From the NCBI GenBank assembly GCA_000165345.1, contig CM000432.1, positions 608,001 to 672,000 of the forward strand: a stretch of 64,000 nucleotides of DNA, written 5' to 3'. This document shows positions 17,975 through 64,000 of the stretch, piece after piece. The stretch's first letter is position 1. Every line of letters begins with the position of its first letter. The position numbers and the translations under genes were made by a program. The notes under the pieces were generated by a model that saw only the letters and a list, made by a program, of their open reading frames with translations, did not search any database and had not been told where the DNA came from.

Positions 17975-19930
17975 ATGCCTTTTTTTTATATTAATAATGC
18001 ATTGAACTATCTCTCAATATGTAACATTTCTATTGGATTCATTCTTGTTCTGAAAAAACTAGCCCAATTAAGTTCTGAATATATAGAAAATAATGTCCCA
18101 TCTAATTTCTCAATATTTTACTCAACGGAAACGGGAAATTCAAGAAAAATATCAGAATTGTTCAAGAAACTACTAGATGAAATAAGCATTGAAGCCAATG
18201 TCCGTGAGATAAACTCGATACTAGAAGAAAACATGTATTTAAATAGTAACAATTCGGTGTTTGTTTTCGTAGTTTCTACATGCGGAAATGGGAGCTTTCC
18301 AGCATCGTCGAGGAAATTCATTCGTTATCTTTCGAAAATGATAAAATCTGGGAATGAAATATTTTTAGGAATCAAATACACTATTATTGGCCTTGGAAGC
18401 TCCTTATATGAATACTCTTTTAATTCTGCGGCTTTAAAGCTTGATAAATTGATCTCTTCACTTAAAGGTGAGAAATATTGCGAAATTGCACTCTTGGACG
18501 AAGTGAATGGTAATGAGATTGATTTTAAAACATGGTGGAACAATACATTTTTAAATAGGCTTGGAATTTCAGATTCAAAAGAACATTTGAACAAACATTT
18601 CAGTATAGCTGTAACGAGAAAAAAAGATGAATTTGTTTGTAAATTGAGAAGTATTAATGAAATCTCACTTTATAATCACTCTCTCTCTGGGAATTGCCAC
18701 GTTTCTGAAATTTACTTCAAGCTAATAGAATTTTGCCCCATTAACAGAGAATTATTATGTGAAACAAAAACTATCGATGGCATTGAAAGACAAATTTTTA
18801 ACTTAAAACTTGAACTTCCTGATAAAGTACAATATAAGACATTTGATATTATCGATATACTTCCACCAAACCTCGATGAAAACATTACTTTTTTTTCAAG
18901 CAAAGTATTGGGAATAAACAGTATCGAAGATTTAAAAAATATTACTGTTGAATTTGTGCCAATAAATAACATGACGAGAAATATCAGTGTCCCATTTCCT
19001 AATAATCGCTCTTTAATGCATATACTAAAGTACTATTTTGATCTTATGACTTTACCTCCTCACTCAGTAATGCTACAATTTGTTCCTTATTTAAATTCAA
19101 TAGAAGGAGAGCTTATTTCCAACGAAAGTTTTTTTAATGAAAATAAGGATTCTTATGAGTTTTCTTTTCATTTATTTATAAATCGTTTTATGAAAAGTCT
19201 TATTCCAATACCAATAGAAAAGTTTGTTAAATTTACTGGAATCAGACAATATCCAAGGAGCTATTCAATTTCATCCTCCTCACTCGCTTCACCATCAATG
19301 ATTGATTTAACAATTAGTACGTGTATTAAGGGCCAAATCTCTGCCCCATTAAATGAAATAATTAGCGAAGGGGCGAATAAAAAGAATTCCAAAAAAATTA
19401 TCAAAGGATTGTGTTCAAGTTTTCTTTTTGAATTTGATTTGAATTTGCCTGTACTAGGAATGATAAGGTCATCTTCTCTCAATATAGACAATGTGACATC
19501 ATCTGCACTAATGTTTTCACATGGGAGTGGTATTGCGCCTATTAGAGCACTATTACATGAACGAAAATATTTAATTAATGAAAAAAAAATTATAAAGCCA
19601 GCGTATTTGTTTTACGGATGCAGAACAGAAAATGAAATAATTTATAAAGACGAACTTAAGGACTTTAAAAGAATAGGTGCATTAACTGAAGTTTTTTTTG
19701 CTTTGTCTAAGACACAAAAAAAATACGTTAAAGACATAATTCCTTTTTATAAACACATCATTTTAAAGGTAGTTGATCAAAATGATTCAATAATATATAT
19801 CTGTGGGAAAAAGGAATTTGTTTCAGGGATCAAAAATGAAGTTGCATCGATCATTTCTAATAATCGTTCGAGAAATATTATTAAAAAAATGTTTGTTGAA
19901 GGTAGAATTTTTATAGAATCATGGAATTGA
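17975..19930 (+). CDS. NADPH-dependent diflavin oxidoreductase (cytochrome P450 reductase / NDOR1-Tah18 family)
   Basis: N-terminal flavodoxin-like FMN domain (IFYSTETGNSRKISE, FVVSTCGNG...P). FAD-binding RQYPRSYSISSS (RxYSIxSS motif). NADPH-binding FSHGSGIAPIRALLHER and YICGKKE...V. C-terminus ...IESWN resembles the family C-terminal aromatic. The N-terminus has a hydrophobic stretch that may be a membrane anchor. Confidence 0.75.
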   Translation: MPFFYINNALNYLSICNISIGFILVLKKLAQLSSEYIENNVPSNFSIFYSTETGNSRKISELFKKLLDEISIEANVREINSILEENMYLNSNNSVFVFVVSTCGNGSFPASSRKFIRYLSKMIKSGNEIFLGIKYTIIGLGSSLYEYSFNSAALKLDKLISSLKGEKYCEIALLDEVNGNEIDFKTWWNNTFLNRLGISDSKEHLNKHFSIAVTRKKDEFVCKLRSINEISLYNHSLSGNCHVSEIYFKLIEFCPINRELLCETKTIDGIERQIFNLKLELPDKVQYKTFDIIDILPPNLDENITFFSSKVLGINSIEDLKNITVEFVPINNMTRNISVPFPNNRSLMHILKYYFDLMTLPPHSVMLQFVPYLNSIEGELISNESFFNENKDSYEFSFHLFINRFMKSLIPIPIEKFVKFTGIRQYPRSYSISSSSLASPSMIDLTISTCIKGQISAPLNEIISEGANKKNSKKIIKGLCSSFLFEFDLNLPVLGMIRSSSLNIDNVTSSALMFSHGSGIAPIRALLHERKYLINEKKIIKPAYLFYGCRTENEIIYKDELKDFKRIGALTEVFFALSKTQKKYVKDIIPFYKHIILKVVDQNDSIIYICGKKEFVSGIKNEVASIISNNRSRNIIKKMFVEGRIFIESWN

Positions 19931-38456: not shown

Positions 38457-41400
38457 TTAACTTACCAAAATTAAATATAACTGTCCAAGAATTGAAGCTT
38501 GGACTATATTCAATTGTCTCATAAATTCATTCCATTCTTCTTTGACCTCTGTTGGAAAATGTTTTTCAAGGTTCCCAACCATTATTGTATTTTTTAATGT
38601 TGAATAAATGCAATGCGTGTATAAATAGAATAGTTTTCTTATTCTTTCTTGAGATTCTATCTTGATGAAGCGTAGCTTTTCAACGTTTAAGTTGAAGGAA
38701 ATATCGATATTTATTACATATGGCTCCAATGAAAACAGTATTTTGCTAAACTTTGTAACTTCTTTTGTAATAATGTGTTTTTCTCTGTTTTTTATTCTTT
38801 CACTTTTAGAGAATATTCCTTTTATTGCGCTTGCAATATTTTTAAAGAACGCTCTTGGCCCCTTTGAGTTTATGATGAATGGAAATTCTTTAACTGTACT
38901 CTCAAAACTACTAATACTACCTAATAAAAAGTCGTATAAGCATTCAGAGTTTTCCATATCATTTATATAAGGTACTAAGGAGTTTCTTGCAATACCACTA
39001 AAAATTAACATATTTTCTAATAAGCTCTTTAAAGTGTAAAGCTTTGAAGACAAATTTTTAAATACAACTTTATTTCCATTTAAGTTGTGGATGGTCCAAA
39101 TTTCATCAAACAGTGAGCTAATCTCGTAATATATTTTTCTCTCAGCATTATCAATATTGACGAACTGTTTCTGTAATAAACTAAAAAGCTCGTCAATTTG
39201 TATTATTTCAATCACCTTATTGAACAACTTACATCCAATAAATTCAGTTTCCTTCAAAGATAAGATGTTGTTCTTTAAATTGCATCTATCATCCTTCCCA
39301 AAATCAAAGCGGTAATTTTCGTCTATTAGTTCTTTTGTAATAGCAGTCTTTAGTGACGTTCTTCCAAGATTTTTCAGAGTCTTATACAGAAAAATAGTAA
39401 AAGTATTAATTACAATTAACTCATCTCTGTTATTGTAAATTCTAAGTGCAGTTGAAAATAAAATTTTGTTCTTAGTATGGTAATTTGAACCATCATTAAT
39501 GGTATATCTTCTTTTAATAAATATATTTCTTGAAAACGAAATCAATTTATTCAATAGCGATATTTTTGAACGCAGCTTATTTACTGTCATTTTTAAATTA
39601 CTACCAGCAATATCGAATAAATATGGGCCTAAAGAAACTGTAATAGGTATAATTGGGTAAGATGCATCATTTAACTCTCCAACTATTGACTTCTCCAAAA
39701 AAAAGTATCTATCATTGAAAATAAAACTTATAAGTTTTATTTTGAACTTTTCAAGATTTAAAATATAATAATCTGTTAGCTTTAATAATTCATTTAGTCT
39801 AGAATTTATTTCCTCCATCTTTATTCTAATTATCTTGACTATTCCCATTATTACTTGAAACTGTGATAAAAATTTAGTAAAAGAATTTTTAAAGTTAATT
39901 TTTTTATTCACTTTGGATGCACTAACTCTCTCTCTTATTCTTTCAAATAATGAATTTCTGGTAGAAATCAATATTTTTCTTAAAAAATTCTTTGTTAGTT
40001 CATATTTATACTGAAGCGAAACTTGCTTACTTATTTCCAAACCTAAATTATTTTTGCAGTAAATGTATTTTACAAAAATGCTTGTGAATGTGCTTTGATC
40101 AAAATACTCGTTAGTTATCACTTCTCTATGAAGTTTTTTACATTTTTCACTTAAAATATCAGTGTGTTTTTCTTTCAAACTTTGGATTGTTAAATTAATC
40201 AAATTTTTATCTCCATATGTTCCCAATATTATTGCTACTGACATTAACGAGTTACTTAGTTTTGTAATAGATCCTAACAAAATTTCATTTTGTGAAAAAT
40301 TCATTGAATCTATAATAATGTTATAAACTCGAATAGTTTCTTCGATTATATTCATTTCAGCAGGATTTAATTCTAATGAATTTGTAATGGATTCCATAAA
40401 CTTTAGTTCAATAGAGTTATTAATATCCGATTCTTTTTTAGAGTAACGATTAAAAAAAATATTATCGCTTAAATCCAATTCAGAATTGAGCTTTATTCTC
40501 TGTTGTAAATTAAGCCCAATTCTAAACTCTTCATAAAGTTTCAATTTAAAGGCCTTCCAAGAAATACTAGGTTTTGGAGGAGTGTAATGAGAACTGTTAG
40601 GGTGTTTTTCAATAACAAAATGATTCCATACTGACAATAAAAACTTATTTAATTGGTAAATGTGCGAATGAATTTCCTCCAACCACCTAACACCAAGTAT
40701 TGACTCACGCGAAATTCCAACTTCTACATATTGACATTGAATTCGAGAATATAGAGTCAAAAAAATAGAGAAACAGAAAATACACGAGCCATTAATATCC
40801 CTTTCTCCAAAAAAATCCATACACTCATAATTCTCTTTCTCTTCAAGCCGATTCTCATTTAATTTATTTAGAAGTTTATTCGGATGTTTGATTATCGAGT
40901 AAAAATTGATATCAGAAAAAATGGAAGGCTCATCTTTAGAATCAGGGGATATAGATGCTAATGAGACAGCTAAAGAAACTGTTTCAAGTACATATCGTGA
41001 ATAACCCCTTGCAAAGGAAGCCATCTGTAATGCTTCCCATTGTACATGCTTAATATCAGAACTATTTGAATAAAATTTTAACAGTTCGATATTATTACTT
41101 ATTGATGTGCAAATTAAAGCAAACTCGTACGATATTTTTCGAATTTCAGGAACCAAATTTAAAATAGTGTTATCAATAACTTTCCAAGGAATAACAGAAA
41201 TAGTTCTATTAATTTGATCTAAATCAGGAATTAGATTAGAAATTAAATGATTATTTGTTGATACATTAATATCTTCATTACTTGTTTCAAATATTATATC
41301 AGAATTACAATTTGTTGAGTGAATGGGAATTGAATGGATTGTCACACCATTTGTTGAAAATGGTGCAGAAATATTTGATTGTGCAGAGAATGAAGAAATA

Positions 41401-41708
41401 AACGACTCCATAAACAATACGTCATCATCAATTAAACTTTTGCTGAAATTTTTTGAGTTTGACAAATTTGCAGCTAAATCGTATGATTGGTCATTATAAT
41501 TTTCGAGGAGATTAATATGCTCTCTTATACTTTTTATTGTATTGAGTTCTGCATTTGAAGTAATGCCAACTTCAAAGTATTTAACATCGGCATTATATAA
41601 ATTCTTTTCAGATGGGTATTTTGTTTTTCTATTTCTTTTGCAATAACTAGCTGTTAGATTTAAATATATCACTAATATCGAAAGGATGAGCTCTTTTATT
41701 TTAAACAT
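38457..41708 (-). CDS. Large hypothetical protein (1083 aa) with N-terminal signal-peptide-like sequence
   Basis: Long uninterrupted ORF on the minus strand. N-terminus MFKIKELILSILVIYLNLTASYC is hydrophobic. No recognisable catalytic motifs. Asn/Ile/Lys-rich. Confidence 0.5.
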   Translation of the reverse strand: MFKIKELILSILVIYLNLTASYCKRNRKTKYPSEKNLYNADVKYFEVGITSNAELNTIKSIREHINLLENYNDQSYDLAANLSNSKNFSKSLIDDDVLFMESFISSFSAQSNISAPFSTNGVTIHSIPIHSTNCNSDIIFETSNEDINVSTNNHLISNLIPDLDQINRTISVIPWKVIDNTILNLVPEIRKISYEFALICTSISNNIELLKFYSNSSDIKHVQWEALQMASFARGYSRYVLETVSLAVSLASISPDSKDEPSIFSDINFYSIIKHPNKLLNKLNENRLEEKENYECMDFFGERDINGSCIFCFSIFLTLYSRIQCQYVEVGISRESILGVRWLEEIHSHIYQLNKFLLSVWNHFVIEKHPNSSHYTPPKPSISWKAFKLKLYEEFRIGLNLQQRIKLNSELDLSDNIFFNRYSKKESDINNSIELKFMESITNSLELNPAEMNIIEETIRVYNIIIDSMNFSQNEILLGSITKLSNSLMSVAIILGTYGDKNLINLTIQSLKEKHTDILSEKCKKLHREVITNEYFDQSTFTSIFVKYIYCKNNLGLEISKQVSLQYKYELTKNFLRKILISTRNSLFERIRERVSASKVNKKINFKNSFTKFLSQFQVIMGIVKIIRIKMEEINSRLNELLKLTDYYILNLEKFKIKLISFIFNDRYFFLEKSIVGELNDASYPIIPITVSLGPYLFDIAGSNLKMTVNKLRSKISLLNKLISFSRNIFIKRRYTINDGSNYHTKNKILFSTALRIYNNRDELIVINTFTIFLYKTLKNLGRTSLKTAITKELIDENYRFDFGKDDRCNLKNNILSLKETEFIGCKLFNKVIEIIQIDELFSLLQKQFVNIDNAERKIYYEISSLFDEIWTIHNLNGNKVVFKNLSSKLYTLKSLLENMLIFSGIARNSLVPYINDMENSECLYDFLLGSISSFESTVKEFPFIINSKGPRAFFKNIASAIKGIFSKSERIKNREKHIITKEVTKFSKILFSLEPYVINIDISFNLNVEKLRFIKIESQERIRKLFYLYTHCIYSTLKNTIMVGNLEKHFPTEVKEEWNEFMRQLNIVQASILGQLYLILVS

Positions 41709-42051: not shown

Positions 42052-43044
42052 ATGAATTCAAATGTAGGTAGTGAAAGAAAAAATGTAGAATTGAATTTTG
42101 CAAATATTAATCTATCAAACAATAGCTCTTCTATCAAAGATTCGATTAATCTTCAAGATCAAAATAATCTAGACAATTTTTTTACGGAAAATATTACTAT
42201 TTCAGATTCGGAAGATAACATTTCAATTGAATCAAATTTTTCAGAGAATCCTATTCATCAGCTTGATTCTACAGAAAAAACAAGAATTTATGTGCCACTT
42301 TCAATTGAAACTAAAGACGACAATGCATTCTTTTTAAATAGAAGTAAAAGCTTGAAAGATTCCAAAAATCAAACCAAAATTTTATCAAAGCAAAGTGCTG
42401 ATTATATACAAAGTTCTGAGAAAAGACTTAAGAAAAATAGAAAATACAGAATAAAAAAAGATGCAATAAACACGGAATTTGAAGAAAAAGAAAAGAAACA
42501 TAATAAAAAGTCATCATTTTGTTGTTGCCTACAGACTGAAGACAACAAAAAAAATACAAATTCCACCGAAGATCAGGCTCCCAAATTGAGTGATTTTATG
42601 GAGGCCAAATTACAAAATGCAAAAGTAGAAGAGCCTACCGAACAGAAGTCTCTAGAAGACAAACCTAAGAATACAAAAGATATTGGACACAAAATCAATA
42701 AAATTCAGTTAGAGAAGGAACTTGAAAAAAAGTCCCAGTTCATTGAAACTAAACTTAATATTGTTAATGAAAAAAGCCCAAAAAGCAAAAGCCTAGAAAA
42801 TATTTACAAAATATTTGAATATAAAATGAATATTGAAATCCCGAAATTCAATGACTCAATGGATTTGGGGTTCTTGTCAAAAAGATTTGGAGAGAAAGAA
42901 ACCAATCAAAATAAACCATCATCTGTAAAATTTCCAAATTTTTATGAAAAGACAATTACTGAAATTATATCCGATACTCTTAGCTGGTATGAAATGTATA
43001 AATTAAATAGAGTAAAAAGACTAGAGGGAATCTTAGATAGTTGA
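42052..43044 (+). CDS. Hypothetical low-complexity Lys/Glu/Asn-rich protein (330 aa)
   Basis: ORF from ATG 42052. Highly charged low-complexity sequence. No motif recognised. Could be a genuine small nuclear/nucleolar protein or a chance ORF. Confidence 0.35.
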   Translation: MNSNVGSERKNVELNFANINLSNNSSSIKDSINLQDQNNLDNFFTENITISDSEDNISIESNFSENPIHQLDSTEKTRIYVPLSIETKDDNAFFLNRSKSLKDSKNQTKILSKQSADYIQSSEKRLKKNRKYRIKKDAINTEFEEKEKKHNKKSSFCCCLQTEDNKKNTNSTEDQAPKLSDFMEAKLQNAKVEEPTEQKSLEDKPKNTKDIGHKINKIQLEKELEKKSQFIETKLNIVNEKSPKSKSLENIYKIFEYKMNIEIPKFNDSMDLGFLSKRFGEKETNQNKPSSVKFPNFYEKTITEIISDTLSWYEMYKLNRVKRLEGILDS

Positions 43045-54845: not shown

Positions 54846-55260
54846 CTCACAAGTAAATAATTTTTTAATTAAAGAAATTAAATATATATTTTATTTCGCG
54901 GGGCATTTTTTTTATTATTTCCAGAATGAACAAAAATGTAAATACTTAACAATTAATTACCAAAACCTATAAGTGAATTATAAAGAACAATTGTTTATAT
55001 TGGAATAATTTGATTTATTCTTTAAAAGTATAGGGTAATATTTACTATATAGTAGCATTTTGAAAATCCAGAGTCAAATATTAGAATTTAGATCTCAAAA
55101 AATTATTGTTAAATTCATTTTAGCTTAGCTTCGAGTTATTAAGTTACCGCACAAAGTGTGTCATTCTTACAAGTAAAAGGCAGATTTGCAAAAGTAATTG
55201 CATTTTTATAGAATAATACTTAAACAAAAAAAAATAAGGATAAATTGTTTATATTACGTA

Positions 55261-57450
55261 ATGAATAGTAGTAAACCTGAGTATGATGCAATCATCAGCC
55301 AAATCGAGTTATTCTCAAACACAATACCTGATAGTAATGCATTTGTTTGGTTGAATGATAATGGGAATGAAGAGTCAACAATTACTTATAAAAATCTTTG
55401 GAAATCAATTAGAATAATCTCTCATTTTTTGTTAAATGAATTGTCATTAAAAAAAGGTGATAGGATTATTTTGTGTTACACACCAGGAATTGATTTCATA
55501 TATTCTTTTTATGGCTGTCTTGCAAGTGGAATTGTTGCAATTCCTGTTTACCCTGCAGATCCAAATAATTCATCTCAAGTGGATAGGCTTCGTAAGATTG
55601 TTGACATAAGCCAAGCTAATGCTTGTCTTACTAATTCATCCTACAATAGAATTATTTCACTATTCAAATTTAAATTTTTCAATGAACCTCTTTGGAATGC
55701 AATTAGTTGGTACTCGACAGATAAAATATTAAGAGACTATAGTGAATTTGAATTAGTAACAGATAATGGTTTTTACAAATCGAAAAATGACTCATTGAAT
55801 CCGTTTAAAACAGTTGTGAAGAATGAAATTATTCATTTTAAAAAGCCAAAATGTGAGCCTCATGATAGCGCATTCATACAATTTACATCCGGATCAACAG
55901 GTCATCCAAAAGGAGTAATTGTTACTCATGGATCATTATATTATAATTCACTATTGTGTATGAAATGTTTTAACTTCTCTCTAGAACCTAAATTTGAATC
56001 ACCCGAAACAAAAATAACTGAAAATGATATCGAAACGAGTGATGAAGCTAATAAAATACTAAAAGAAATTATTGAAATTAAAAATCAATTCATAAAGACT
56101 TTTGGGCATAACATTAGAGGATTTTCTTGGCTCCCAATGTATCATGATATGGGTTTAGTAGGATTTATTGTTAGCACAGTAATTATCGGATCTGAAACGT
56201 TTTTACTATCACCATTTTCATTTATTAAGAACCCCCACATATGGCTTAAAGTGATTTCAAAATACAGAATTGCTGCAACTGCTGCACCAAATTTTGCATT
56301 TGATTATATTTGTAGAAAAATAACAAACGATGAATTAGAAGAAATAAATAACTTGGGTGGATTAGGTTGTTTGAAACATGGTGGTATTTTAAGTGGTTCT
56401 GAACCAATTAGAGCTGCAACACTTGTTAGGTTTGTAAAAAAATTTTCTTCAGTGGGTTTTTGTTCATCTGCCTTCCTTCCTGCGTATGGGATGGCTGAAA
56501 ATACACTTATTATTTCCGGACTTAAAAAAAAAAGCAAACTATTTCCTAAGGTATTAACATTAAAAAGTGATAAAATAATCCCAGGAAAAAAGGTTGAAAT
56601 AGTCAATTATGGATATATTTCTTGTTATTGTAACTATTGTAAACACGAAAATAGCATTGAATTCAATGACAAAGATTGCATGAAAAGAAATTTAGTATGT
56701 TGTGGAGAAAAGAACTCAGTAAACGATAAAATCATCATTGTTTGCCCAGAAAAAAATACGATTCTTCCAGAAAATTATGTTGGTGAGATTTGGGTTTCTT
56801 CTAGAAGTAAAGGCGCAGGATATTGGCTCTTACATGATCTAACTGACAAAATTTTCTTTGCAAAAGTAAAGGAATGTGATTCTGACTTGTCTGATATAAA
56901 ATTTTTGAAAACTGGAGATTTGGGTTTCATAAATAACGATCAGTTATATATAGTAGGAAGGCAAAAAGATGTAATTATCATTAGAGGTAAAAACTATTAT
57001 CCGCAGGATATTGAAGAAGTAATCGATACTTGCCACGAAGTAATTCGTCCGGGTTGTTGTGTGGCATTTTCAATTGATATTGATGGTGAAGAAAAGCTTG
57101 CAATTGCAACAGAAGTAAGAAGTGAGCTTATTGAATCTTCGGATATTTTGGGAATTAAATCATATATTAAAGGTTTAATTAATAAAAAAGAAAGATTTCA
57201 AGCTAAAGATATTATTGATAAGCTATCAATTAGTATTCAGAAATACTTAGGAATTGAGGTTTATAGAATAATATTAATAAAAGAAAAAAAAATGCCAAAA
57301 ACCTCAAGTGGTAAAGTTCAAAGGTCAAAAGTTAAACAAATGATTATGAATGGAGATTTTGGTTCAAGCATTGTAATTGATTTTATTAACAATAATTTAG
57401 AAAATATAAAATTAGTTGAAGTGTTTGACAAAGATGAAAGAAATATTGAC
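55261..57450 (+). other. Acyl-AMP ligase (adenylation) loading domain of the megasynthase
   Basis: AMP-binding motifs FTSGSTGHPKGV, PMYHDMGL and YGMAENT. Boundaries approximate. Confidence 0.8.
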
Positions 57451-60400
57451 TCCGATTACTTTTCAGTTTACAGTGAAAATGAATTTCCTGATAAAATATA
57501 TGAGAGGGTAAAGCATATATTTGAGTCAGTAGTAGGAAATAAATATTTTCCAGAGTTAGATGATCCACTTCTTTCATGCGGAATTGAATCAATTAAAGCT
57601 GTGGAAATATGTAATGCGCTTTCAAAAGAATTTAATATTGATTTCCCTGCAACTTTAATATTTGATTTTCCAACTCTGAGACTTTTAATAGAGCATATTG
57701 ACCTTCTCAAAAATGGAAATAAGGAATACTTACCCAATGAAATCACCAGTGTACCTGGAAAAACTACTAGTGAGTTTGTTATTTCTGGAATAAATGCTCA
57801 CTTACCTGGTTTTAGCTCGAACAACCCGTTTGTGAAGCTTTGGGAAGTAATGATGAATAGTGCAAATGTATTTTCTCCTGTTCCACATGAAAGATGGAAT
57901 GCATATTGTTTTAATGAAAAGAAGTCTATTTCTGCTATTCAAAAAATTAAAAACTACTATACTGATACAGGTGCTTATATTATTGGATCAGAATTTTTCG
58001 ATTTAGAAAAATTCAAAATACTTCCAATAGAAGTTGAGCATATGGATCCACAACAGAGATTACTATTAAGGGGAACCGAAAAGATTTTAAAACATGTTGA
58101 ACTCCCAACAAATAATTCAACTGGTGTTTATATTGGATGTTGTTCTAATGATTGGAGTCAAATCATTTCTAATTCTACTCATCTTTCTGTTTACTCTGGA
58201 ACAGGCGCATCTCCTTCAATACTAGCAAATAGAATCTCATTTTATAATGGGTTCGCAGGACCATCTATTACAATTGATACTGCATGTTCTTCAAGTTTAG
58301 TTGCATTGGATATCGCCCTTCATCATCTTCAACAAAACATAACAAATACTGCTTTTGTAGCAGGAGTCAACTCAATACTAAACCCAAACATATTTGTTTC
58401 GTTGTGTAAAGCAAAAATGCTCTCTGATACAGGAAAATGCTCACCTTTTGATGAAAGTGCAAACGGTTTTGTTAGGGGTGAAGGATGTATAATTGTATGT
58501 ATTCAACATATATCAATAGCAAAGAAAAAAATTGCAACAATTCTCGGTACATATGTTAATCAGGATGGAAAAACAACAACTCTAACTGCTCCAAAAGGAC
58601 CATCACAAGTATCTGCAATAAGGAATTGTCTAGGAATTTCGGGAATGCATCCATCAGAGATTAATTATATCGAATGCCACGGTACAGGCACCCCGTTGGG
58701 TGATCCGATAGAGGCAGGAGCAATAATGTCTGTTTTTAAAACTCATAATGAATACCAATATAATGTAACTCACATGAATTCTAATATCGTAATAGGTGCA
58801 TTCAAATCAAACATTGGTCATTTAGAAGGTGCAGCAGGTTTAGCTGGTCTTTTAAAAGTATTACTTGTTATGTCAAGAAGATTTTTCCCAGGAATAGGGA
58901 ATTTAATAAACATCAATACTCATATTAAAAAATTGTTAAATGATAAAACAAATCATAATCGAATTATTTTTCCTAATATGAATGAAGGAAAATATTTTTC
59001 AGAAATAGGAATTGAAGAAACACAAGTTTTGCGATCCGGAATATCATCTTTTGGATTTGGTGGTACTAATTCTCACGTAATTATTGAAGAAGGGGCAAAT
59101 ATTAACTCAATTTGGGATATTGAAACTGAGGAGAACTCTGACTTACAAGAAGGCAATTACTTCCCATGGACTGCAAGATTTCATCCCTTCATTTCAACAA
59201 TTAACAACAAAGACGAAATTTATTCTTACGCTATTTCGAAATTGAAGTGTAAAAAATATGTTATTGAGCACATTATTAATGGATTAAGCATATTTCCTGC
59301 ATCAGGATATATTGAGCTTGCTATTATAACTTGCAGGCTCGCAGCATTAGATATTTCTAGTGGTGAACAAATTGTTTATATTCAAAAAAAAAATTCTAGA
59401 GATGAAATTATAAGCGAGTTCAAGAAGAGTAACTTTGATATACTAACTAGAGAATCAAATATATACTTATTGAAAACTTCCCCCGTAGTAATAAAGAACC
59501 TAGAAATTATTTCTGTTTTCAATTTAGATAATCTGGAAAATGAGGAATTAAATGCAAACATACATATTAATGAAGGAAAAGTTTCTATTTATTCAAAAAA
59601 TAGGGATTATTTCAGTTGTAATGCAAATTTAATTTTAGATATTGAATCAAACAACAGAATGGAAATTCTGGATAATTCCTTTACAGTTGATGAATTTAAA
59701 AAAGTATGCATACTTAGAACAATTGTTCATGATGAATTATATGATTTGTTAAATAATTCAGGATATAATTATATAGGTAGATATCGTTCATTGGAATATG
59801 TTTCAATTGGAGATTCAATTGGGTATGGAAAGATTAAAACGGATGAATATGACTCTAGTCCTTTTTGCATCGCACCCTGGATATTAGATTCAGCGTTTCA
59901 AGTTTTAGGAGGATTCTTAATTACTAATGGGAATATTAATGGACAATTCATTCCAGTTAGAATTGAAGAAATGTTAATCAATTCCGATATATCGTATTCA
60001 GAACTTTATTCTTTAGTAAAAATCACAAATATTGAAGAAAAACAAATAATTTGTAACATTTGTTTGATAAATGAAAAAGGTTCTAAATTGATTGAAATTG
60101 TAAAAATGAATTTCATAAAAAATGAAATTCCAAACCAAAAAACAGTAGTAAATTTGGATCATAAAAAAAAAATAGATCATCTAAATTCCAAAGTAGATTA
60201 CGAAAATAATTATTTTGGTATAAAATTAGATTGGAGACCAGTTGCAGCGTCGGAATTATTTGAAAATAACGATAATGTAAATAGTTATAGTATTATTACA
60301 TCTGATAAGCAATTTTCTAGGATAAATTCAAGCCTAGAAAAAACAGGAAATAAAATAATTAAATTTAATAAAAATCTTATTAATTTTGATGGGAATATTG

Positions 60401-63400
60401 TTTTCTTTAATTGCAAATTAGAGGAAATAAAAATTTCTATTAAACAAGCAAAAAGTGGAGCAAGGTTCTACATATTAACGAAAAACGCAATACCAATTGA
60501 AAAAATAATTAGAACTGATGGTTTTTCATTTGATAACTTATATTGGGACTCGATTAATCAATTTATTTTAGAAAACAATATTATTATTTCCGTTATTGAC
60601 ATAGAATCATTTGACGAATTGAATAGCCAAATTAAATTTGGAATTAACTATCTTGGGAAAAACAATATTAAAAATAAGATACCAAATATTTTGTTTGATC
60701 ACTTAGTAATTAGAAATGTTCAAATGGCAAGGGAGAGAAATCTAACCTTGATTGGCTATTCCGCTACTCCAATTCGAATTGGAAATTGCATCGGTATAGA
60801 TAATTTTAAATATGAACTAACCTCAAGAGGAGAACTTAAAAACTTCAAAATAAAATATTCTGAGAAATTTAAAATAGAAGAATTAGGGGATGATGAGGTT
60901 AAGGTTCAAGTTAAAGCAGTTGGGTTGAATTTTAGGGATATATTAAATATAATGAATTTATATCCTGGAGACCCTGGTGAACCTGGTAGCGACTTTTCTG
61001 GAATTATAATAGGTATTGGTAATAATGTTAAACCATTCAAAATAGGTGATCATGTTTGGGGATTTGCAAGAGGTTGCTTCAAATCTCAGTTGGTAACAAC
61101 ATCTACATTAATTTCTAAAAAGCCAAGAAATTTATCATTTGAAGAAGCTGCAGCTTTACCCGTAATCTTTTGCACAGTAGAAGCTTCATTCAATGATTTA
61201 TATAAAGTAAAAAAAGGAGATTTTGTACTGATCCATGCTGCAACTGGTGGAGTTGGTATTGCAAGTGTTCAGTATTGTATTAATAAGGGCGCAATAGTAT
61301 TTGCAACATGTTCTTCTAACTCAAAAAAAAAATGGCTTTGTGGATTGGGAGTTCATTATGTCTCAAGTTCGAGAGATCACAAAATATTTAACAAAGAAAT
61401 GAATGAATTCTTAAATATTGCATCAAAAAGATACAGAGGTGGAAAAAATGCAAAGTTTGATTTAGTACTCAATTGTCTTTCTGGTGAATTTATTCATGAA
61501 TCCTTTAAGAAAATACGTTCAGGAGGAACATTTATTGAATTGGGAAAAAGAGAAACTTTGGACTATTCTCAGGCAAAATCAAATTATCCAGAGATAAATT
61601 ATTTGAAACTAGCAATCGATGAATTGGTTGTGGGTAATGCCAAATATATTCAATCATTACTTTCAAGGTATGAGACTAATAATTTAATTAATACAAATCC
61701 TACTTTGCCTGTTAAGGTTTTTAAAATGGAATCTTGTACTCTAGAAGCATTAAGGTTTATGCAAAAGGCTTCTCACATCGGTAAAATAGTATTAACATTG
61801 CCACCTCCTCAAACACTAATGTTTGAGGCTTTTAATTACAAGACATTGAATATAGTTAATCTTGAAAAGTTTTCTATTGAATTATTCAAAAGATATGAAT
61901 GTAGTGAGTTAGTAGATTTACTGGACCAAGAATCAAGAAATTTTGAGTTATACAAAGATTGCGAATCAAAGTTTATTAATGAAATGATTACTAAAGGAAA
62001 TATTATCGGGCCATTCGAGATATTCTCCAAATACAAGAATATGTTGGAATCTTTGTTTTCAGCTAGTCAATCAATACCTTTAAAGGTAATTAACTATATT
62101 ATTGATAATGAAATTTTTGAAGAATTACGTATTCTTATTATTTCTCCAATATTTCCAGAAATATTATTGGATAAAATTTTATCATTTAAATCAGGCAAGG
62201 TGGTATTTTTAACAATTTATGATGAAAACAACAAGGAGAGATGTTATAAAGTAGGTAATAATATAGTAAATTATGTTAGCAGTATTATTAACCTTAATTC
62301 TGAACAATTCGACTTTGCAATTATCACCTCAACATTCTTTGGAAAACTTTCATTTATCTCATTAATGGAAAATATAAAATTGATGCTTAAAAAAGGAGGG
62401 CCACTTTTTATTATCAACCCATTTGGAGAAGGTTTAACATCAAGTATTATCAAACAGCAATATTGTAGTTATACATCAAAAATAATTGTTCCAATTAAAT
62501 TTAGAGTTGATTTTAATGTTGAAAACGTTATTGATGAATTTAAGTTGATAAATTGTGACAAAAATAAAACAGTTAAATTCTACTCTTTCGAAACAAATTA
62601 TTGGGATTCAGAATTTGTAAAGCAAAATAATACTGACGATAATGGATTCAAAAACAATTTTCATATAATTTTATCCCATAAAGAAGACGAAATATCTTTA
62701 TTTGCTGCTACTAAGTTGTTAAGCGAAGCAGGTGCAAACAATTTTGTGTATATATCAACGGAAAAAATTACAATTAATTACCCATTCAAGTACAAATTTG
62801 AAATTGAAAAAGAAAACTTTGTTCAAAATTTCAAAAGAATATTAAGTGGAAATGGAATTTACAAAATTTCGGGAATAATATGTTTGCCCTTAAATCATTT
62901 GGAATGCAAAGAAATTTCAAATATTCTTTGGGATATTCATTCAATTTCATTTATTTCAACTACATCTATTCAATATTTCTTACTTTGCTCTTGTAATGAC
63001 AAAAATAATTTAATATTAGAAACATTTTGTAGATACAGACGTAACATTGGTCTTCCTGGGCAAGTTGCTTTTTGGAATTATAATTCAGAACAAGTTTCCA
63101 ATCTTAATCATGGCTCATTTGTACAAGCTGCAATTAAACTTGCAATTGTAAGTAATTCTGCTTGTATTTACAAACCAATGAAAAATCAAGTTGAAAATAG
63201 CGAGGCTTGGGAAACTAACAGTAAAATTGTGTTTGATAAACAACATATAACGAACATAATAGTAAACACAATAAATGATATTGTAGGAATTGAAAAAATT
63301 GACTTTAACACTCCACTAATTGAATTAGGACTCGACTCTTTATCCGCAGTTGAAGTTAGAAATGCAATTTCTAACGAATTAAATATCGTTTTACCAATTA

Positions 63401-64000
63401 CCACATTATTTGATTATCCAACCATAAATTCGTTATCAGATTTTATACTAAACATTTCAAATACATCAACAAATATCTTATTACCAAAAACAAATAAAGA
63501 CAATATTGGATTAATTATTTCTCAAAATATCCCATCACTAAAAAATATTATTTTCTCTCAAGATAATAAATCTAAAAATCTAACTTCAAAACTATCAATT
63601 ACTGGAATTGGCTGTAGGCTACCTGGAAATACAAATTCCCCAATTGAATTTTGGGAAAGAACTTTGCTTTCTATGCAAACCTGGTCATCAGAAGTTCCAT
63701 TAAGTAGGTTTGATATTGATGAATTTTATTTAAATATAGATGATTATAAAAATATTAACTACTTATCAAAAAATCTAACTTATTCAAGGCATGGGACATT
63801 TATCGAAAGTATTGATTTATTTGATAATGATTATTTTAATATTACAACTTATGAATCTTCAACTATGGACCCACAGCAAAGAATATTATTGGAAACCACA
63901 AGCGATGCATTACATAGCTCAGGATATAACCCAAAGAATATTTCCAACTCAAATATTGGTGTATTTGTAGGATGTTGTGGGACTGACTGGAACTATCTTT
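55261..64000 (+). CDS. Giant type I polyketide/fatty-acid megasynthase, 5' partial. Loading AL (acyl-AMP ligase) - ACP, then KS-DH-ER-KR-like-ACP, then start of next KS. ORF runs off the window end
   Basis: Continuous open frame from ATG 55261 to the window end (absent from the ORF track because it has no stop). AL: FTSGSTGHPKGV (~55882) and YGMAENT. ACP1: LLSCGIESIKAVEICNAL (~57580). KS: DTACSSSLVALD (Cys ~58285), ECHGTGTPLGDPIE, IGHLEGAAGLAGL. DH: HIINGLSIFPASGYIELA (~59270) and ILDSAFQVLGG. ER: GLNFRDILNIMNLYPGDPGEPGSDFSG and HAATGGVGIASVQ (~61245). ACP2: LGLDSLSAVEVRNAI (~63330). KS2 starts ~63600 (ITGIGCRLPG ... DPQQRILLE). No GHSxG acyltransferase domain lies between KS (ends ~59090) and DH (starts ~59200). 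Confidence 0.9.
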   Translation, partial: MNSSKPEYDAIISQIELFSNTIPDSNAFVWLNDNGNEESTITYKNLWKSIRIISHFLLNELSLKKGDRIILCYTPGIDFIYSFYGCLASGIVAIPVYPADPNNSSQVDRLRKIVDISQANACLTNSSYNRIISLFKFKFFNEPLWNAISWYSTDKILRDYSEFELVTDNGFYKSKNDSLNPFKTVVKNEIIHFKKPKCEPHDSAFIQFTSGSTGHPKGVIVTHGSLYYNSLLCMKCFNFSLEPKFESPETKITENDIETSDEANKILKEIIEIKNQFIKTFGHNIRGFSWLPMYHDMGLVGFIVSTVIIGSETFLLSPFSFIKNPHIWLKVISKYRIAATAAPNFAFDYICRKITNDELEEINNLGGLGCLKHGGILSGSEPIRAATLVRFVKKFSSVGFCSSAFLPAYGMAENTLIISGLKKKSKLFPKVLTLKSDKIIPGKKVEIVNYGYISCYCNYCKHENSIEFNDKDCMKRNLVCCGEKNSVNDKIIIVCPEKNTILPENYVGEIWVSSRSKGAGYWLLHDLTDKIFFAKVKECDSDLSDIKFLKTGDLGFINNDQLYIVGRQKDVIIIRGKNYYPQDIEEVIDTCHEVIRPGCCVAFSIDIDGEEKLAIATEVRSELIESSDILGIKSYIKGLINKKERFQAKDIIDKLSISIQKYLGIEVYRIILIKEKKMPKTSSGKVQRSKVKQMIMNGDFGSSIVIDFINNNLENIKLVEVFDKDERNIDSDYFSVYSENEFPDKIYERVKHIFESVVGNKYFPELDDPLLSCGIESIKAVEICNALSKEFNIDFPATLIFDFPTLRLLIEHIDLLKNGNKEYLPNEITSVPGKTTSEFVISGINAHLPGFSSNNPFVKLWEVMMNSANVFSPVPHERWNAYCFNEKKSISAIQKIKNYYTDTGAYIIGSEFFDLEKFKILPIEVEHMDPQQRLLLRGTEKILKHVELPTNNSTGVYIGCCSNDWSQIISNSTHLSVYSGTGASPSILANRISFYNGFAGPSITIDTACSSSLVALDIALHHLQQNITNTAFVAGVNSILNPNIFVSLCKAKMLSDTGKCSPFDESANGFVRGEGCIIVCIQHISIAKKKIATILGTYVNQDGKTTTLTAPKGPSQVSAIRNCLGISGMHPSEINYIECHGTGTPLGDPIEAGAIMSVFKTHNEYQYNVTHMNSNIVIGAFKSNIGHLEGAAGLAGLLKVLLVMSRRFFPGIGNLININTHIKKLLNDKTNHNRIIFPNMNEGKYFSEIGIEETQVLRSGISSFGFGGTNSHVIIEEGANINSIWDIETEENSDLQEGNYFPWTARFHPFISTINNKDEIYSYAISKLKCKKYVIEHIINGLSIFPASGYIELAIITCRLAALDISSGEQIVYIQKKNSRDEIISEFKKSNFDILTRESNIYLLKTSPVVIKNLEIISVFNLDNLENEELNANIHINEGKVSIYSKNRDYFSCNANLILDIESNNRMEILDNSFTVDEFKKVCILRTIVHDELYDLLNNSGYNYIGRYRSLEYVSIGDSIGYGKIKTDEYDSSPFCIAPWILDSAFQVLGGFLITNGNINGQFIPVRIEEMLINSDISYSELYSLVKITNIEEKQIICNICLINEKGSKLIEIVKMNFIKNEIPNQKTVVNLDHKKKIDHLNSKVDYENNYFGIKLDWRPVAASELFENNDNVNSYSIITSDKQFSRINSSLEKTGNKIIKFNKNLINFDGNIVFFNCKLEEIKISIKQAKSGARFYILTKNAIPIEKIIRTDGFSFDNLYWDSINQFILENNIIISVIDIESFDELNSQIKFGINYLGKNNIKNKIPNILFDHLVIRNVQMARERNLTLIGYSATPIRIGNCIGIDNFKYELTSRGELKNFKIKYSEKFKIEELGDDEVKVQVKAVGLNFRDILNIMNLYPGDPGEPGSDFSGIIIGIGNNVKPFKIGDHVWGFARGCFKSQLVTTSTLISKKPRNLSFEEAAALPVIFCTVEASFNDLYKVKKGDFVLIHAATGGVGIASVQYCINKGAIVFATCSSNSKKKWLCGLGVHYVSSSRDHKIFNKEMNEFLNIASKRYRGGKNAKFDLVLNCLSGEFIHESFKKIRSGGTFIELGKRETLDYSQAKSNYPEINYLKLAIDELVVGNAKYIQSLLSRYETNNLINTNPTLPVKVFKMESCTLEALRFMQKASHIGKIVLTLPPPQTLMFEAFNYKTLNIVNLEKFSIELFKRYECSELVDLLDQESRNFELYKDCESKFINEMITKGNIIGPFEIFSKYKNMLESLFSASQSIPLKVINYIIDNEIFEELRILIISPIFPEILLDKILSFKSGKVVFLTIYDENNKERCYKVGNNIVNYVSSIINLNSEQFDFAIITSTFFGKLSFISLMENIKLMLKKGGPLFIINPFGEGLTSSIIKQQYCSYTSKIIVPIKFRVDFNVENVIDEFKLINCDKNKTVKFYSFETNYWDSEFVKQNNTDDNGFKNNFHIILSHKEDEISLFAATKLLSEAGANNFVYISTEKITINYPFKYKFEIEKENFVQNFKRILSGNGIYKISGIICLPLNHLECKEISNILWDIHSISFISTTSIQYFLLCSCNDKNNLILETFCRYRRNIGLPGQVAFWNYNSEQVSNLNHGSFVQAAIKLAIVSNSACIYKPMKNQVENSEAWETNSKIVFDKQHITNIIVNTINDIVGIEKIDFNTPLIELGLDSLSAVEVRNAISNELNIVLPITTLFDYPTINSLSDFILNISNTSTNILLPKTNKDNIGLIISQNIPSLKNIIFSQDNKSKNLTSKLSITGIGCRLPGNTNSPIEFWERTLLSMQTWSSEVPLSRFDIDEFYLNIDDYKNINYLSKNLTYSRHGTFIESIDLFDNDYFNITTYESSTMDPQQRILLETTSDALHSSGYNPKNISNSNIGVFVGCCGTDWNYL
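57775..59090 (+). other. Ketosynthase (KS) domain, module 1
   Basis: Cys-His-His triad motifs TACSSSL, ECHGTGT, GHLEGAAG. Boundaries approximate. Confidence 0.85.
59200..61830 (+). other. DH (HxxxGxxxxP, DxxxQ) - structural linker - ER (MDR-type, GGVGxAxxQ) region of module 1, directly following KS with no AT
   Basis: The DH and ER motifs quoted above are present. The ~240-aa segment between them fits a pseudo-KR/structural subdomain. Boundaries approximate. Confidence 0.7.

What the first reader, a model, noticed from the sequence alone, without database searches (positions are those of the whole stretch)
55261..64000. Type I PKS/FAS megasynthase begins with an acyl-AMP-ligase + ACP loader and an AT-less KS-DH-ER-KR-ACP module
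The open frame from 55261 runs beyond the window. By eye it reads AL(AMP-binding)-ACP-KS-DH-[linker]-ER-[~270 aa]-KR-like-ACP-KS. Only ~60 residues separate the end of KS (GGTNSHVIIEE) from the DH HxxxGxxxxP motif, so module 1 has no integrated acyltransferase.

An AL-ACP starter unit is the hallmark of the Cryptosporidium FAS1/PKS1 megasynthases. A fully reducing module without a cis-AT implies either trans-acylation, loading by the upstream AL only, or a non-elongating first module.
Basis: partly seen in the sequence, partly recalled or inferred. Interest (0 to 1): 0.7.

Follow-up and report, generated by a model that had tools for sequence, protein, structure and literature searches.

The report
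Cryptosporidium PKS1 start, AT-less first module

Summary
The frame 55261..64000 (+) is open for all 2913 codons. By HMM it reads AL, ACP, KS, DH, ER, ACP, then the start of KS2. No acyltransferase is present: Pfam finds none even at E<=10, and a custom AT HMM with filters off finds none, while scoring 1e-94 and 1e-118 on Toxoplasma FAS. Only 64 residues separate the KS end from the DH catalytic His, against a median of 513 in cis-AT relatives.

Five neighbouring ORFs match C. parvum Iowa II chromosome-4 proteins exactly, so this is CpPKS1 (cgd4_2900), described in 2002. Syntenic orthologues in C. bovis and C. andersoni share the layout and the 64-residue spacing.

Three refinements:
- The junction keeps the tail of a post-AT linker, so the AT was cleanly excised. 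The trans-AT docking subdomain is also missing.
- The 'KR-like' segment has no NADPH loop and no catalytic Lys or Tyr, so the module is not 'fully reducing'.
- A ~280-aa insert confined to Cryptosporidium, faintly methyltransferase-like, sits between ER and the dead KR.

The KS, DH, ER and ACP catalytic motifs are conserved. The most likely mechanism, which is inferred, is an elongating module malonylated in trans. Verdict: a known gene and a real feature of modest interest.

The parts
55261..57360 (+). Acyl-AMP ligase (AL, FAAL-type adenylation domain), aa 1-700. Core motif SGSTGHPKG is at aa ~210.
   Evidence: Pfam AMP-binding E=4.7e-44, aa 23-522, plus a DIP2-like C-terminal subdomain. The best NCBIfam matches are fatty-acid--AMP ligase families such as FadD32, E down to 1.7e-82. 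The motif is conserved in all three species.
57463..57705 (+). Loading ACP, aa 735-815. The phosphopantetheine Ser777 (GIESI) is at nt 57589-57591.
   Evidence: Pfam PP-binding E=8.4e-12 on the sub-fragment. The Ser is conserved in the orthologues.
57766..59100 (+). Ketosynthase KS1, aa 836-1280. The catalytic triad is intact: Cys1009 (DTACS), His1140 (HGTGT), His1187 (NIGH).
   Evidence: Pfam PF00109 and PF02801. Motif positions. All three motifs are identical in C. bovis and C. andersoni.
59101..59205 (+). Short KS-DH junction, aa 1281-1315, in place of the KS-AT linker domain, AT and post-AT linker. It retains the post-AT-linker tail and DH N-terminal motif NYFPWTARFHPFIS (aa 1299-1312).
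   Evidence: The spacing from KS end to DH His is 64 aa in all three species. It is 198-228 aa in trans-AT-type junctions and a median of 513 aa in cis-AT junctions. Toxoplasma FAS modules that contain an AT carry the same motif (RKPFPWTEIPHPFL) just before the DH. The junction is 49-74% identical between species.
59206..60135 (+). Dehydratase (double hot-dog), aa 1316-1625. His1337 lies in HIINGLSIFP, Asp1543 in LDSAFQ, and there is a GYNYIGRY motif.
   Evidence: PKS_DH_N (weak) and PS-DH E=1.4e-10. jackhmmer links it to more than 100 PKS DH domains. The motifs are conserved.
60241..60810 (+). Segment X, aa 1661-1850: a divergent KR structural (pseudo-KR) subdomain. RFYILTKNAIPI corresponds to the canonical LWLVTrgAq strand.
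   Evidence: hhalign against a KR-structural profile gives P=4.4e-4 over 115 columns, and 0 of 60 column shuffles reach that score. A KRs HMM gives marginal hits at the homologous site in all three species. Against the AT profile P=0.29.
60811..61815 (+). Enoyl reductase (MDR family), aa 1851-2185. The NADPH motif is HAATGGVG. This is the best-conserved domain.
   Evidence: Pfam ADH_N and ADH_zinc_N. E=4e-41 to the CurK ER and 1.4e-40 to the spinosyn KR-ER structure 3slk. It is 59% identical to C. andersoni. It keeps the columns that are invariant across canonical ERs.
61816..62655 (+). Segment Y, aa 2186-2465: a ~280-aa insert between ER and the KR-like part, found only in Cryptosporidium. 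It has a weak methyltransferase-like core (FDFAIIT...LKKGGPLFI) but no SAM-binding glycine motif.
   Evidence: The ER-to-KR motif distance is ~480 aa here against ~200 aa in canonical modules. hhalign against a C-MT profile gives P=1.8e-4 over 52 columns, with 0 of 60 shuffles reaching it. An MT HMM gives a marginal hit at aa 2345-2385. No relative outside Cryptosporidium was found among 1.84 billion representatives, and none in PDB.
62656..63135 (+). Segment K, aa 2466-2625: a degenerate catalytic-type KR (KR0). LSHKEDEIS replaces TGGxGxLG, and the stretches holding the catalytic Lys and Tyr are deleted or replaced.
   Evidence: hhalign against a KRc profile gives P=4.8e-5 over 150 colinear columns, with 0 of 60 shuffles reaching it. 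Pfam finds no KR, and a KRc HMM gives only marginal hits while scoring 1e-81 on the Toxoplasma control. The unbiased AF2 model shows a Rossmann-like beta-alpha-beta pattern at pLDDT 55-68. It is 46% identical to C. andersoni, with the same losses.
63241..63465 (+). Module-1 ACP, aa 2661-2735. Ser2693 (GLDSL) is at nt 63337-63339.
   Evidence: Pfam PP-binding aa 2667-2729 and ACP_SdgA_C. Conserved in C. andersoni.
63568..63999 (+). N-terminal part of KS2 (start of module 2). The frame runs off the window.
   Evidence: This is the second PF00109 stretch. It aligns to C. andersoni KS2 at 55% identity.

Best explanation
Identity and anatomy (shown). This is the 5' 22% of CpPKS1 (cgd4_2900), the 13,414-aa, seven-module type I polyketide synthase of Cryptosporidium parvum. 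It encodes a fused fatty-acyl-AMP-ligase and ACP loader, then module 1, then the start of KS2. Module 1 reads KS, DH, pseudo-KR structural subdomain, ER, a ~280-aa insert, a dead KR, ACP. The AT, its KS-AT linker domain and most of the post-AT linker were cleanly excised from a canonical KS-AT-DH-ER-KR-ACP ancestor. This state is conserved across the genus.

Mechanism (inferred). The AL activates a long-chain fatty acid and loads it on the first ACP, and KS1 takes it over. KS1 keeps the full Cys-His-His decarboxylating triad, and DH, ER and ACP1 keep their catalytic residues under strong conservation. Module 1 is therefore most likely still an elongating module. Its ACP1 would be malonylated in trans by an AT domain elsewhere: a later CpPKS1 module, or CpFAS1. 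Its beta-keto group would either stay unreduced or be reduced by a KR borrowed in the same way.

I put identity and architecture at about 0.95, and the trans-served elongating mechanism at about 0.45.
For: Identity:
- Five neighbouring ORFs are exact matches to C. parvum Iowa II proteins EAK87818, 19, 22 and 30 and alpha-tubulin, on a 1.108-Mb contig.
- The orthologues named 'polyketide synthase' in C. bovis (58% identity) and C. andersoni (43%) sit in the same gene order.
- The literature equates cgd4_2900 with the PKS (PMC6877471; PMC7371110).

No AT:
- Pfam finds none.
- The AT HMM with filters off finds nothing at E<=100 in the three species, against 1e-94 and 1e-118 on the Toxoplasma FAS control.
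- hhalign against AT gives P>=0.027.
- The KS-to-DH spacing is 64 aa.

Clean excision: the FPWTxxxHPF junction motif is retained.

Dead KR.

Elongation-competent parts:
- KS Cys, His, His, the DH His and Asp, the ER NADPH motif and the ACP Ser are conserved across a 43%-identity divergence.
- ER (59%) and KS (52%) are the best-conserved domains.

ATs exist downstream:
- cgd4_2900 is listed under 'Acyl transferase domain'.
- 'AT domains from CpFAS1 and CpPKS1' are mentioned in the literature.
- An AT 'in the 3rd module or later' is reported for C. parvum.

The published chain-length prediction of C28-C38 assumes that all seven modules elongate.
Against: - No experiment or computation here shows that ACP1 is malonylated.
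- KS1 lacks the flanking or docking subdomain (KAsynt_C_assoc, RhiE-like linker, CurL-like C) that bacterial trans-AT PKSs have after each KS, so there is no recognisable AT landing pad.
- With the cis-KR dead, the conserved DH and ER have no obvious substrate unless a KR is also borrowed. That requires two trans activities.
- The downstream modules of CpPKS1 lie outside the window and were absent from the protein database, so I could not locate the nearest AT or KR.
- I could not read the published domain map (Zhu 2002). It is not held.
Confidence: 0.55

Rival explanations
1. Module 1 is a non-elongating pass-through module or evolutionary relic. KS1 only translocates the starter acyl chain from the loading ACP to ACP1 and on to KS2. 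DH, ER and the dead KR are retained mainly as scaffold.
For: - There is no AT, no AT-docking subdomain and no functional KR in cis.
- Cryptosporidium lacks the type II FAS pathway, and hence FabD (PMC2995488; PMC6568194).
- Segments X and Y are poorly conserved, at 26-29% identity.
- C. andersoni module 2 also lacks an AT, so AT loss is not confined to one module.
Against: - Non-elongating KS0 domains of trans-AT PKSs typically lose the HGTGT histidine (established knowledge). Here Cys-His-His is intact in three species.
- ER is the best-conserved domain of the whole region (59%) and keeps all family-invariant residues. DH keeps its His and Asp. That is hard to explain for idle domains.
Confidence: 0.3
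2. It is a bacterial-style trans-AT system. A discrete, free-standing acyltransferase encoded elsewhere in the Cryptosporidium genome malonylates ACP1.
For: The module has no cis-AT. The closest non-apicomplexan protein with an AL-ACP-KS...DH-ER layout and no AT (P0004) is a bacterial trans-AT PKS.
Against: - None of the ORFs of 200 aa or more that I scanned in the 55 kb upstream encodes an AT.
- The KS lacks the flanking subdomain typical of trans-AT KSs.
- The literature describes Cryptosporidium as lacking type II FAS enzymes.
- The junction motif shows descent from a cis-AT module, not from a trans-AT lineage.
Confidence: 0.1
3. A degenerate AT is hidden in segment X or Y, or the upstream AL loads ACP1 directly.
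For: Segments X (about 190 aa) and Y (about 280 aa) are unassigned by Pfam.
Against: - hhalign of X and Y against an AT profile gives P=0.29-0.33. The same segments give P about 1e-4 to the KR-structural and MT profiles.
- There is no GHSxG or AFHS motif.
- The AT HMM with filters off gives no hit.
- An adenylating enzyme would load a fatty acyl group, not a malonyl extender.
Confidence: 0.03
4. The missing AT is an assembly error, a strain-specific deletion or a pseudogene.
For: None found.
Against: - The 64-residue KS-DH spacing and the junction sequence are identical in independent assemblies of three species.
- The frame is uninterrupted.
- The gene is expressed specifically in female stages (PMC6877471).
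Confidence: 0.01

Closest known systems
CpPKS1 (cgd4_2900), Cryptosporidium parvum type I polyketide synthase (Zhu et al. 2002, Gene 298:79)
   Same: It is this gene. The chromosome-4 neighbours match exactly. It is an intronless giant ORF with an AL-ACP loader. The literature describes seven modules and a C-terminal reductase.
   Different: Nothing differs in identity. The window holds only the first 2913 of 13,414 residues. The papers I could read do not spell out the dead KR, the retained post-AT-linker tail or the ER-KR insert.
CpFAS1 (cgd3_2180) and Toxoplasma type I FAS/PKS1
   Same: They share the fused AL-ACP loader and modules of the KS...DH-ER-KR-ACP type. They also share the junction motif (FPWTExxHPFL) before the DH.
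   Different: Every FAS module has a cis-AT and a recognisable KR (control hits 1e-94, 1e-118 and 1e-81). FAS modules have no ~280-aa insert between ER and KR: the DH-to-KR spacing in Toxoplasma is canonical.
Bacterial trans-AT modular PKSs (for example P0004 with an HMG-CoA-synthase cassette)
   Same: The modules have no integrated AT, and a KS is followed directly by modifying domains.
   Different: Bacterial trans-AT KSs carry a flanking or docking subdomain of about 130-150 aa (PF16197, PF22336, PF22621), giving a KS-DH spacing of 198-228 aa. They also have discrete AT genes. Here the spacing is 64 aa and no such subdomain exists. The junction shows secondary loss from a cis-AT module.
Bacterial FAAL-ACP-KS-AT-DH-ER-KR-ACP single-module synthases and mycobacterial FAAL/PKS systems (FadD32-Pks13, Mas, Pps)
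   Same: A fatty-acyl-AMP ligase hands a long-chain acid to an ACP and KS. These are colinear with the loader plus module 1 (P0009-P0014, about 31% identity over 44% of the query; NCBIfam FAAL and Pks13 hits).
   Different: They contain the AT and an active KR, and they lack the ER-KR insert.

Membership tests
Type I modular PKS/FAS megasynthase | KS (PF00109 and PF02801) and carrier domains (PF00550) fused in one polypeptide, with optional DH, ER and KR | tested here: met
   Pfam finds KS at E=1e-79, PP-binding twice, PS-DH and ADH_N/ADH_zinc_N.
CpPKS1 locus (cgd4_2900) | Located on C. parvum chromosome 4, downstream of alpha-tubulin, a sugar transporter and two minus-strand genes | tested here: met
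   Five neighbouring ORFs match EAK87818-87830 and C. parvum alpha-tubulin exactly. The C. bovis and C. andersoni PKS loci show the same synteny.
CpPKS1 locus (cgd4_2900) | Sequence identity to the deposited CpPKS1 protein (AF405554) | not testable with these tools
   The protein collection returned no C. parvum or C. hominis PKS entry. I presume proteins this long are not held.
cis-AT PKS/FAS module | An acyltransferase domain (PF00698, GHSxG) with its linker domain between KS and DH | tested here: not met
   There is no PF00698 at E<=10 and no GHSxG. The custom AT HMM with --max gives no hit, while the positive controls score 1e-94 and 1e-118. Only 64 aa are available.
trans-AT PKS | Modules without an integrated AT | tested here: met
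trans-AT PKS | A flanking (AT-docking) subdomain after the KS | tested here: not met
   Only a 20-residue sub-threshold PF16197 match is present (23 bits against a cut-off of 33), and there is no PF22336 or PF22621. All three families are present after each KS of the bacterial trans-AT PKS P0004.
trans-AT PKS | A discrete acyltransferase gene serving the assembly line | not tested
   None was found among the window ORFs scanned. The rest of the genome could not be searched here.
Fully reducing module (KR + DH + ER) | A functional KR: the NADPH loop TGGxGxLG and the catalytic Lys, Ser, Tyr and Asn | tested here: not met
   No PF08659. hhalign places LSHKEDEIS at the NADPH loop, and the Lys and Tyr stretches are deleted. 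The same holds in C. andersoni.
Fully reducing module (KR + DH + ER) | DH catalytic His and Asp, and the ER NADPH motif | tested here: met
   H1337, D1543 and HAATGGVG are conserved in three species.
Non-elongating KS0 | Loss of a decarboxylation histidine (HGTGT or NxGH) | tested here: not met
   C1009, H1140 and H1187 are intact in all three species.
Fatty acyl-AMP ligase (FAAL) loader | An adenylation domain of the FAAL type fused to or followed by an ACP | tested here: met
   NCBIfam fatty-acid--AMP ligase subfamilies match at E=1.7e-82 and 1.6e-79, below their full-length cut-offs. An ACP follows. Published biochemistry shows a preference for long-chain fatty acids.

The most novel reading that the evidence does not exclude
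Cryptosporidium PKS1 may run a eukaryotic 'intramolecular trans-AT' assembly line. Modules 1 and 2 have lost the AT, its docking platform and KR activity, in an organism with no free-standing acyltransferase. Their ACPs would be malonylated, and their beta-keto groups reduced, by AT and KR domains of distant modules of the same 1.5-MDa polypeptide or of CpFAS1. The ER-KR insert found only in Cryptosporidium could be the adaptor that makes this domain sharing possible.
Probability: 0.25. Interest if true: 0.6.

Novelty: already known. Interest (0 to 1): 0.3.

Why it matters
CpPKS1 is one of two giant lipid synthases expressed specifically in female Cryptosporidium stages, and it is thought to make oocyst-wall lipids. 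Its product is still unknown. Published chain-length predictions (C28-C38) assume that all seven modules elongate.

The first module, and in C. andersoni the second, lacks an AT, an AT-docking site and a working KR. Those predictions, and any model of the product's oxidation pattern, therefore depend on an untested assumption of domain sharing. This sharpens a question about a known gene. It does not reveal a new system.

Tried and rejected
1. AF2 of the post-ER 480 aa with the only available two-sequence alignment gave mean pLDDT 42.7. The Foldseek search of that model returned only generic alpha/beta sandwiches with no E<=0.001. I treat that as uninformative.
2. A deeper alignment with canonical KRs-ER-KRc segments (A3) mis-chained the canonical KR N-terminus onto the insert. 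I did not use it for prediction, because it would bias the model.
3. An exhaustive HMMER search of 1.84 billion representatives with the post-ER profile found only the C. andersoni orthologue. A PDB profile search found nothing at E<=10.
4. phmmer of aa 1614-2660 against PDB matched only the ER.
5. I tried to read the original CpPKS1 papers and reviews (Zhu 2002; Fritzler and Zhu 2007; Mazumdar and Striepen 2007; Rider and Zhu 2010). None is held. The supplementary AT table of the TgPKS2 paper is not held either.
6. Both orthologue contigs end inside the gene, so I could not inspect downstream modules and their ATs beyond C. andersoni module 2.
7. My first attempt to submit an alignment failed because of a one-residue typing error.
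8. I considered CpFAS1 as the identity and rejected it, on the chromosome-4 neighbours and the absence of an AT.

Full report
**Observation.**
The frame starting at 55261 on the + strand is open for all 2913 codons to the end of the window. The nearest in-frame upstream stop is at 55195-55197. The ATG aligns with the N-termini of both orthologues. At the local base composition (A 0.38, T 0.33) the probability of no stop in 2913 codons is about 1e-115. The other five frames contain 120-388 stops each.

Pfam calls the following:

| Domain | Residues (aa) | Note |
|---|---|---|
| AMP-binding | 23-522 | plus a DIP2-like C-terminal subdomain |
| PP-binding | around Ser777 | loading ACP |
| KS | 840-1214 | |
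| PKS_DH_N | ~1329-1362 | sub-threshold; contains HIINGLSIFP |
| PS-DH | 1487-1618 | contains LDSAFQ |
| ADH_N / ADH_zinc_N | 1876-2178 | ER |
| PP-binding | 2667-2729 | module-1 ACP |
| second KS | ~2770 to window end | |

**No acyltransferase.**
- PF00698 is absent from the whole protein. It is also absent at E<=10 from the sub-fragments aa 1281-1870 and 2181-2660.
- There is no GHSxG motif.
- I built an AT HMM from 76 AT domains of the fetched homologues and ran it with all HMMER filters off. It gives no hit at E<=100 in the C. parvum, C. bovis or C. andersoni proteins. It scores 3.7e-94 and 2.3e-118 on the two AT-containing modules of a Toxoplasma type I FAS.
- Profile-profile comparison of every unassigned segment against the AT profile gives P>=0.027.
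- The spacing leaves no room for an AT. From the end of GGTNSH to the DH catalytic His there are 64 residues. KS-DH junctions of trans-AT type in the fetched set have 198-228, and cis-AT modules have a median of 513 and a minimum of 408.

**Identity.**
Five intronless ORFs upstream were looked up by exact sequence. They are C. parvum Iowa II proteins EAK87818, EAK87819, EAK87822 and EAK87830, plus C. parvum alpha-tubulin, on a contig of about 1.108 Mb.

The best database relatives of the query are 'polyketide synthase' of C. bovis (58% identity, partial) and of C. andersoni (43%). Both lie downstream of the same genes: tubulin, a sugar transporter and two minus-strand genes. [quoted passage not shown]

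The literature gives cgd4_2900 as the C. parvum polyketide synthase, CpPKS1. It is a 40-kb, seven-module, 1516-kDa enzyme with an AL-ACP loader and a C-terminal reductase (PMC6568194; PMC10394414; PMC6877471). The alternative, CpFAS1, has an AT in each of its three modules (PMC2995488) and lies on chromosome 3. So the window holds the first 22% of CpPKS1.

The C. parvum protein itself is not in the protein collection, I presume because of its length. Direct identity to the GenBank entry could therefore not be computed.

**Conservation.**
C. bovis and C. andersoni show the same order of domains and the same absence of AT and KR Pfam hits. The 64-residue KS-DH spacing is exactly the same. In C. 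andersoni the sequence extends into module 2. There KS2 is again followed directly by a DH (88 residues) and a KR structural subdomain, with no AT.

Identity between C. parvum and C. andersoni, by domain:

| Domain | % identity |
|---|---|
| ER | 59 |
| ACP (loader) | 53 |
| KS | 52 |
| AL | 49 |
| KS-DH junction | 49 |
| KR-like | 46 |
| DH | 35 |
| insert Y | 29 |
| segment X | 26 |

The following are identical or conservatively kept in all the species that cover them: KS Cys1009, His1140 and His1187; DH His1337 and Asp1543; the ER motif HAATGGVG; and the two ACP serines. The ER also keeps the columns that are invariant across canonical PKS ERs.

**The KS-DH junction.**
After GGTNSHVIIEEG come about 20 residues, and then NYFPWTARFHPFIS. 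Toxoplasma FAS modules that do contain an AT have the same motif (RKPFPWTEIPHPFL, RKFFPWTETCHPLL) at the end of their post-AT linker, immediately before the DH. The bacterial equivalent is YPFQRxRYW...HPLLG.

So the KS-AT linker domain, the AT and most of the post-AT linker were removed in frame from a canonical KS-AT-DH ancestor, and the seam was kept.

The flanking subdomain that follows the KS in bacterial trans-AT PKSs is also absent. That subdomain is seen as PF16197, PF22336 and PF22621 after every KS of P0004, a trans-AT PKS next to an HMG-CoA-synthase cassette. Here only a 20-residue sub-threshold PF16197 match remains.

**The unassigned segments.**
Iterative searches against the 120 fetched homologues connect the DH to more than 100 PKS DHs. 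Segments X (aa 1661-1850), Y (aa 2186-2465) and K (aa 2466-2625) connect only to the Cryptosporidium orthologues. A full HMMER scan of 1.84 billion representative proteins with the Y+K profile returns only the C. andersoni protein. PDB sequences give nothing.

I then ran profile-profile comparison against profiles built from canonical domains. The signals are weak but specific and colinear:

| Segment | Best template | P-value | Columns | Note |
|---|---|---|---|---|
| X | KR structural subdomain | 4.4e-4 | 115 | RFYILTKNAIPI on the LWLVTrgAq strand |
| Y | C-methyltransferase | 1.8e-4 | 52 | FDFAIIT...LKKGGPLFI on motifs II/III |
| K | catalytic KR | 4.8e-5 | 150 | colinear |

Every cross-comparison gives P>=0.027. 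In column-shuffle controls, 0 of 60 shuffles reach the observed score for any of the three: observed 31-37, shuffled means 12-15, maxima 16-23. HMMs of the same domains give marginal hits at the homologous positions in each species.

The ER-to-KR NADPH-motif distance is about 200 aa in canonical colinear relatives and about 480 aa here. Y is therefore an insertion of about 280 aa. Toxoplasma FAS has canonical spacing.

**The KR is dead.**
In the K-versus-KR alignment, the NADPH loop TGGxGxLG is LSHKEDEIS in C. parvum and ICPDLDEVS in C. andersoni. The stretch that holds the catalytic Lys is deleted. The stretch with the catalytic Tyr is deleted or replaced. No Tyr is available in CSCNDKNNLILETF or in CSHGDSNMTIIESL.

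The segment is nevertheless 46% identical between the two species, which indicates a retained, presumably structural, role. The only fold-level hint is from an unbiased two-sequence AF2 model. It shows a Rossmann-like beta-alpha-beta pattern at pLDDT 55-68 for aa ~2461-2610. The rest of the model is unreliable (mean pLDDT 42.7) and its fold search was uninformative. 'Fully reducing module' is therefore not supported.

**Mechanism.**
Shown:
- the domain anatomy
- the absence of an AT and of a docking subdomain
- the loss of the KR cofactor and catalytic residues
- the conservation of the KS, DH, ER and ACP catalytic residues

Taken from the literature:
- The AL domains of CpPKS1 and CpFAS1 use long-chain fatty acids.
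- Cryptosporidium lacks the type II FAS pathway.
- The full-length PKS does contain AT domains.
- Apicomplexan PKS-type enzymes are already described as having at least one module without an AT (PMC7464705).

Inferred: the decarboxylation histidines of KS1 and the catalytic residues of DH and ER are kept under strong constraint. Module 1 most likely still extends the chain. ACP1 would be malonylated in trans by an AT domain elsewhere in CpPKS1 or in CpFAS1, and any beta-keto reduction would be borrowed in the same way (about 0.45).

The main rival is a non-elongating pass-through module (about 0.3). It explains the triple loss well, but not the intact KS triad or the very well conserved ER. 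A discrete trans-AT elsewhere in the genome (about 0.1) was not testable here. None of the upstream ORFs of 200 aa or more that I scanned encodes one. A hidden AT or an assembly artefact is effectively excluded.

**Comparison and novelty.**
It works like an AT-less module of a trans-AT PKS, but it is not a member of that family in the usual sense. The docking subdomain is missing, and the junction shows secondary loss from a cis-AT module. It is colinear with bacterial FAAL-ACP-KS-AT-DH-ER-KR-ACP synthases and with CpFAS1 or Toxoplasma FAS modules, minus the AT, minus KR activity, plus the insert.

The gene and its modular nature have been known since 2002. From my own recollection, which I could not check here, the original description states that the seven modules contain between two and six domains each, which would mean incomplete modules were recognised then.

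None of the papers I could read states the following:
- the clean excision with a retained seam
- the missing docking subdomain
- the dead but conserved KR
- the ER-KR insert
- the genus-wide conservation

These are refinements of a known object, not a new kind of system.

**Verdict.**
Novelty: already known. Interest: 0.3.

Noticed in passing
L001 (C. andersoni LRBS01000031.1), protein P0002 aa 2837-3834: Module 2 of the C. andersoni PKS1 orthologue is also AT-less. KS2 is followed after 88 residues by a DH (aa 3276-3571) and a KR structural subdomain (aa 3710-3797, i-E 1.7e-6). The contig ends there. So AT loss affects at least two consecutive modules.
   Followed up: partly
window 25533-28496 (+): A 987-aa ORF with no Pfam match lies in the most compositionally skewed part of the window. 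At 26-28 kb the GC skew is +0.22 and the AT skew +0.26. Tandem Repeats Finder found nothing.
   Followed up: partly
window 416-10810 (+): A 3464-aa ORF encodes a PIKK-family kinase (PI3_PI4_kinase, ATR-like HEAT repeats, FATC). The mechanical ORF starts at a GTG near the window edge, so the true start may lie elsewhere.
   Followed up: no
window 17975-19930 (+): This ORF encodes a diflavin reductase resembling NADPH-cytochrome P450 reductase (flavodoxin, FAD-binding and NAD-binding domains), about 35 kb upstream of the PKS. I examined no functional link to the PKS.
   Followed up: no
window 38457-41708 (-) and 42052-43044 (+): ORFs of 1083 aa and 330 aa have no Pfam match at E<=0.001.
   Followed up: no
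L003 (Logan SRR28740811 contig), protein P0004: The highest-scoring non-apicomplexan match (32% identity over 44% of the query) is a 4568-aa bacterial trans-AT PKS. It has a FAAL loader, four KSs with flanking subdomains, an ER and a TE. It sits next to an HMG-CoA-synthase/ECH beta-branching cassette.
   Followed up: partly
protein collections searched: No PKS1 entry from C. parvum, C. hominis or other Cryptosporidium species was returned, although their genomes are public. Only two contig-truncated orthologues appeared. I presume very long proteins are missing from these collections. That limits the claim that the insert is found only in Cryptosporidium.
   Followed up: no
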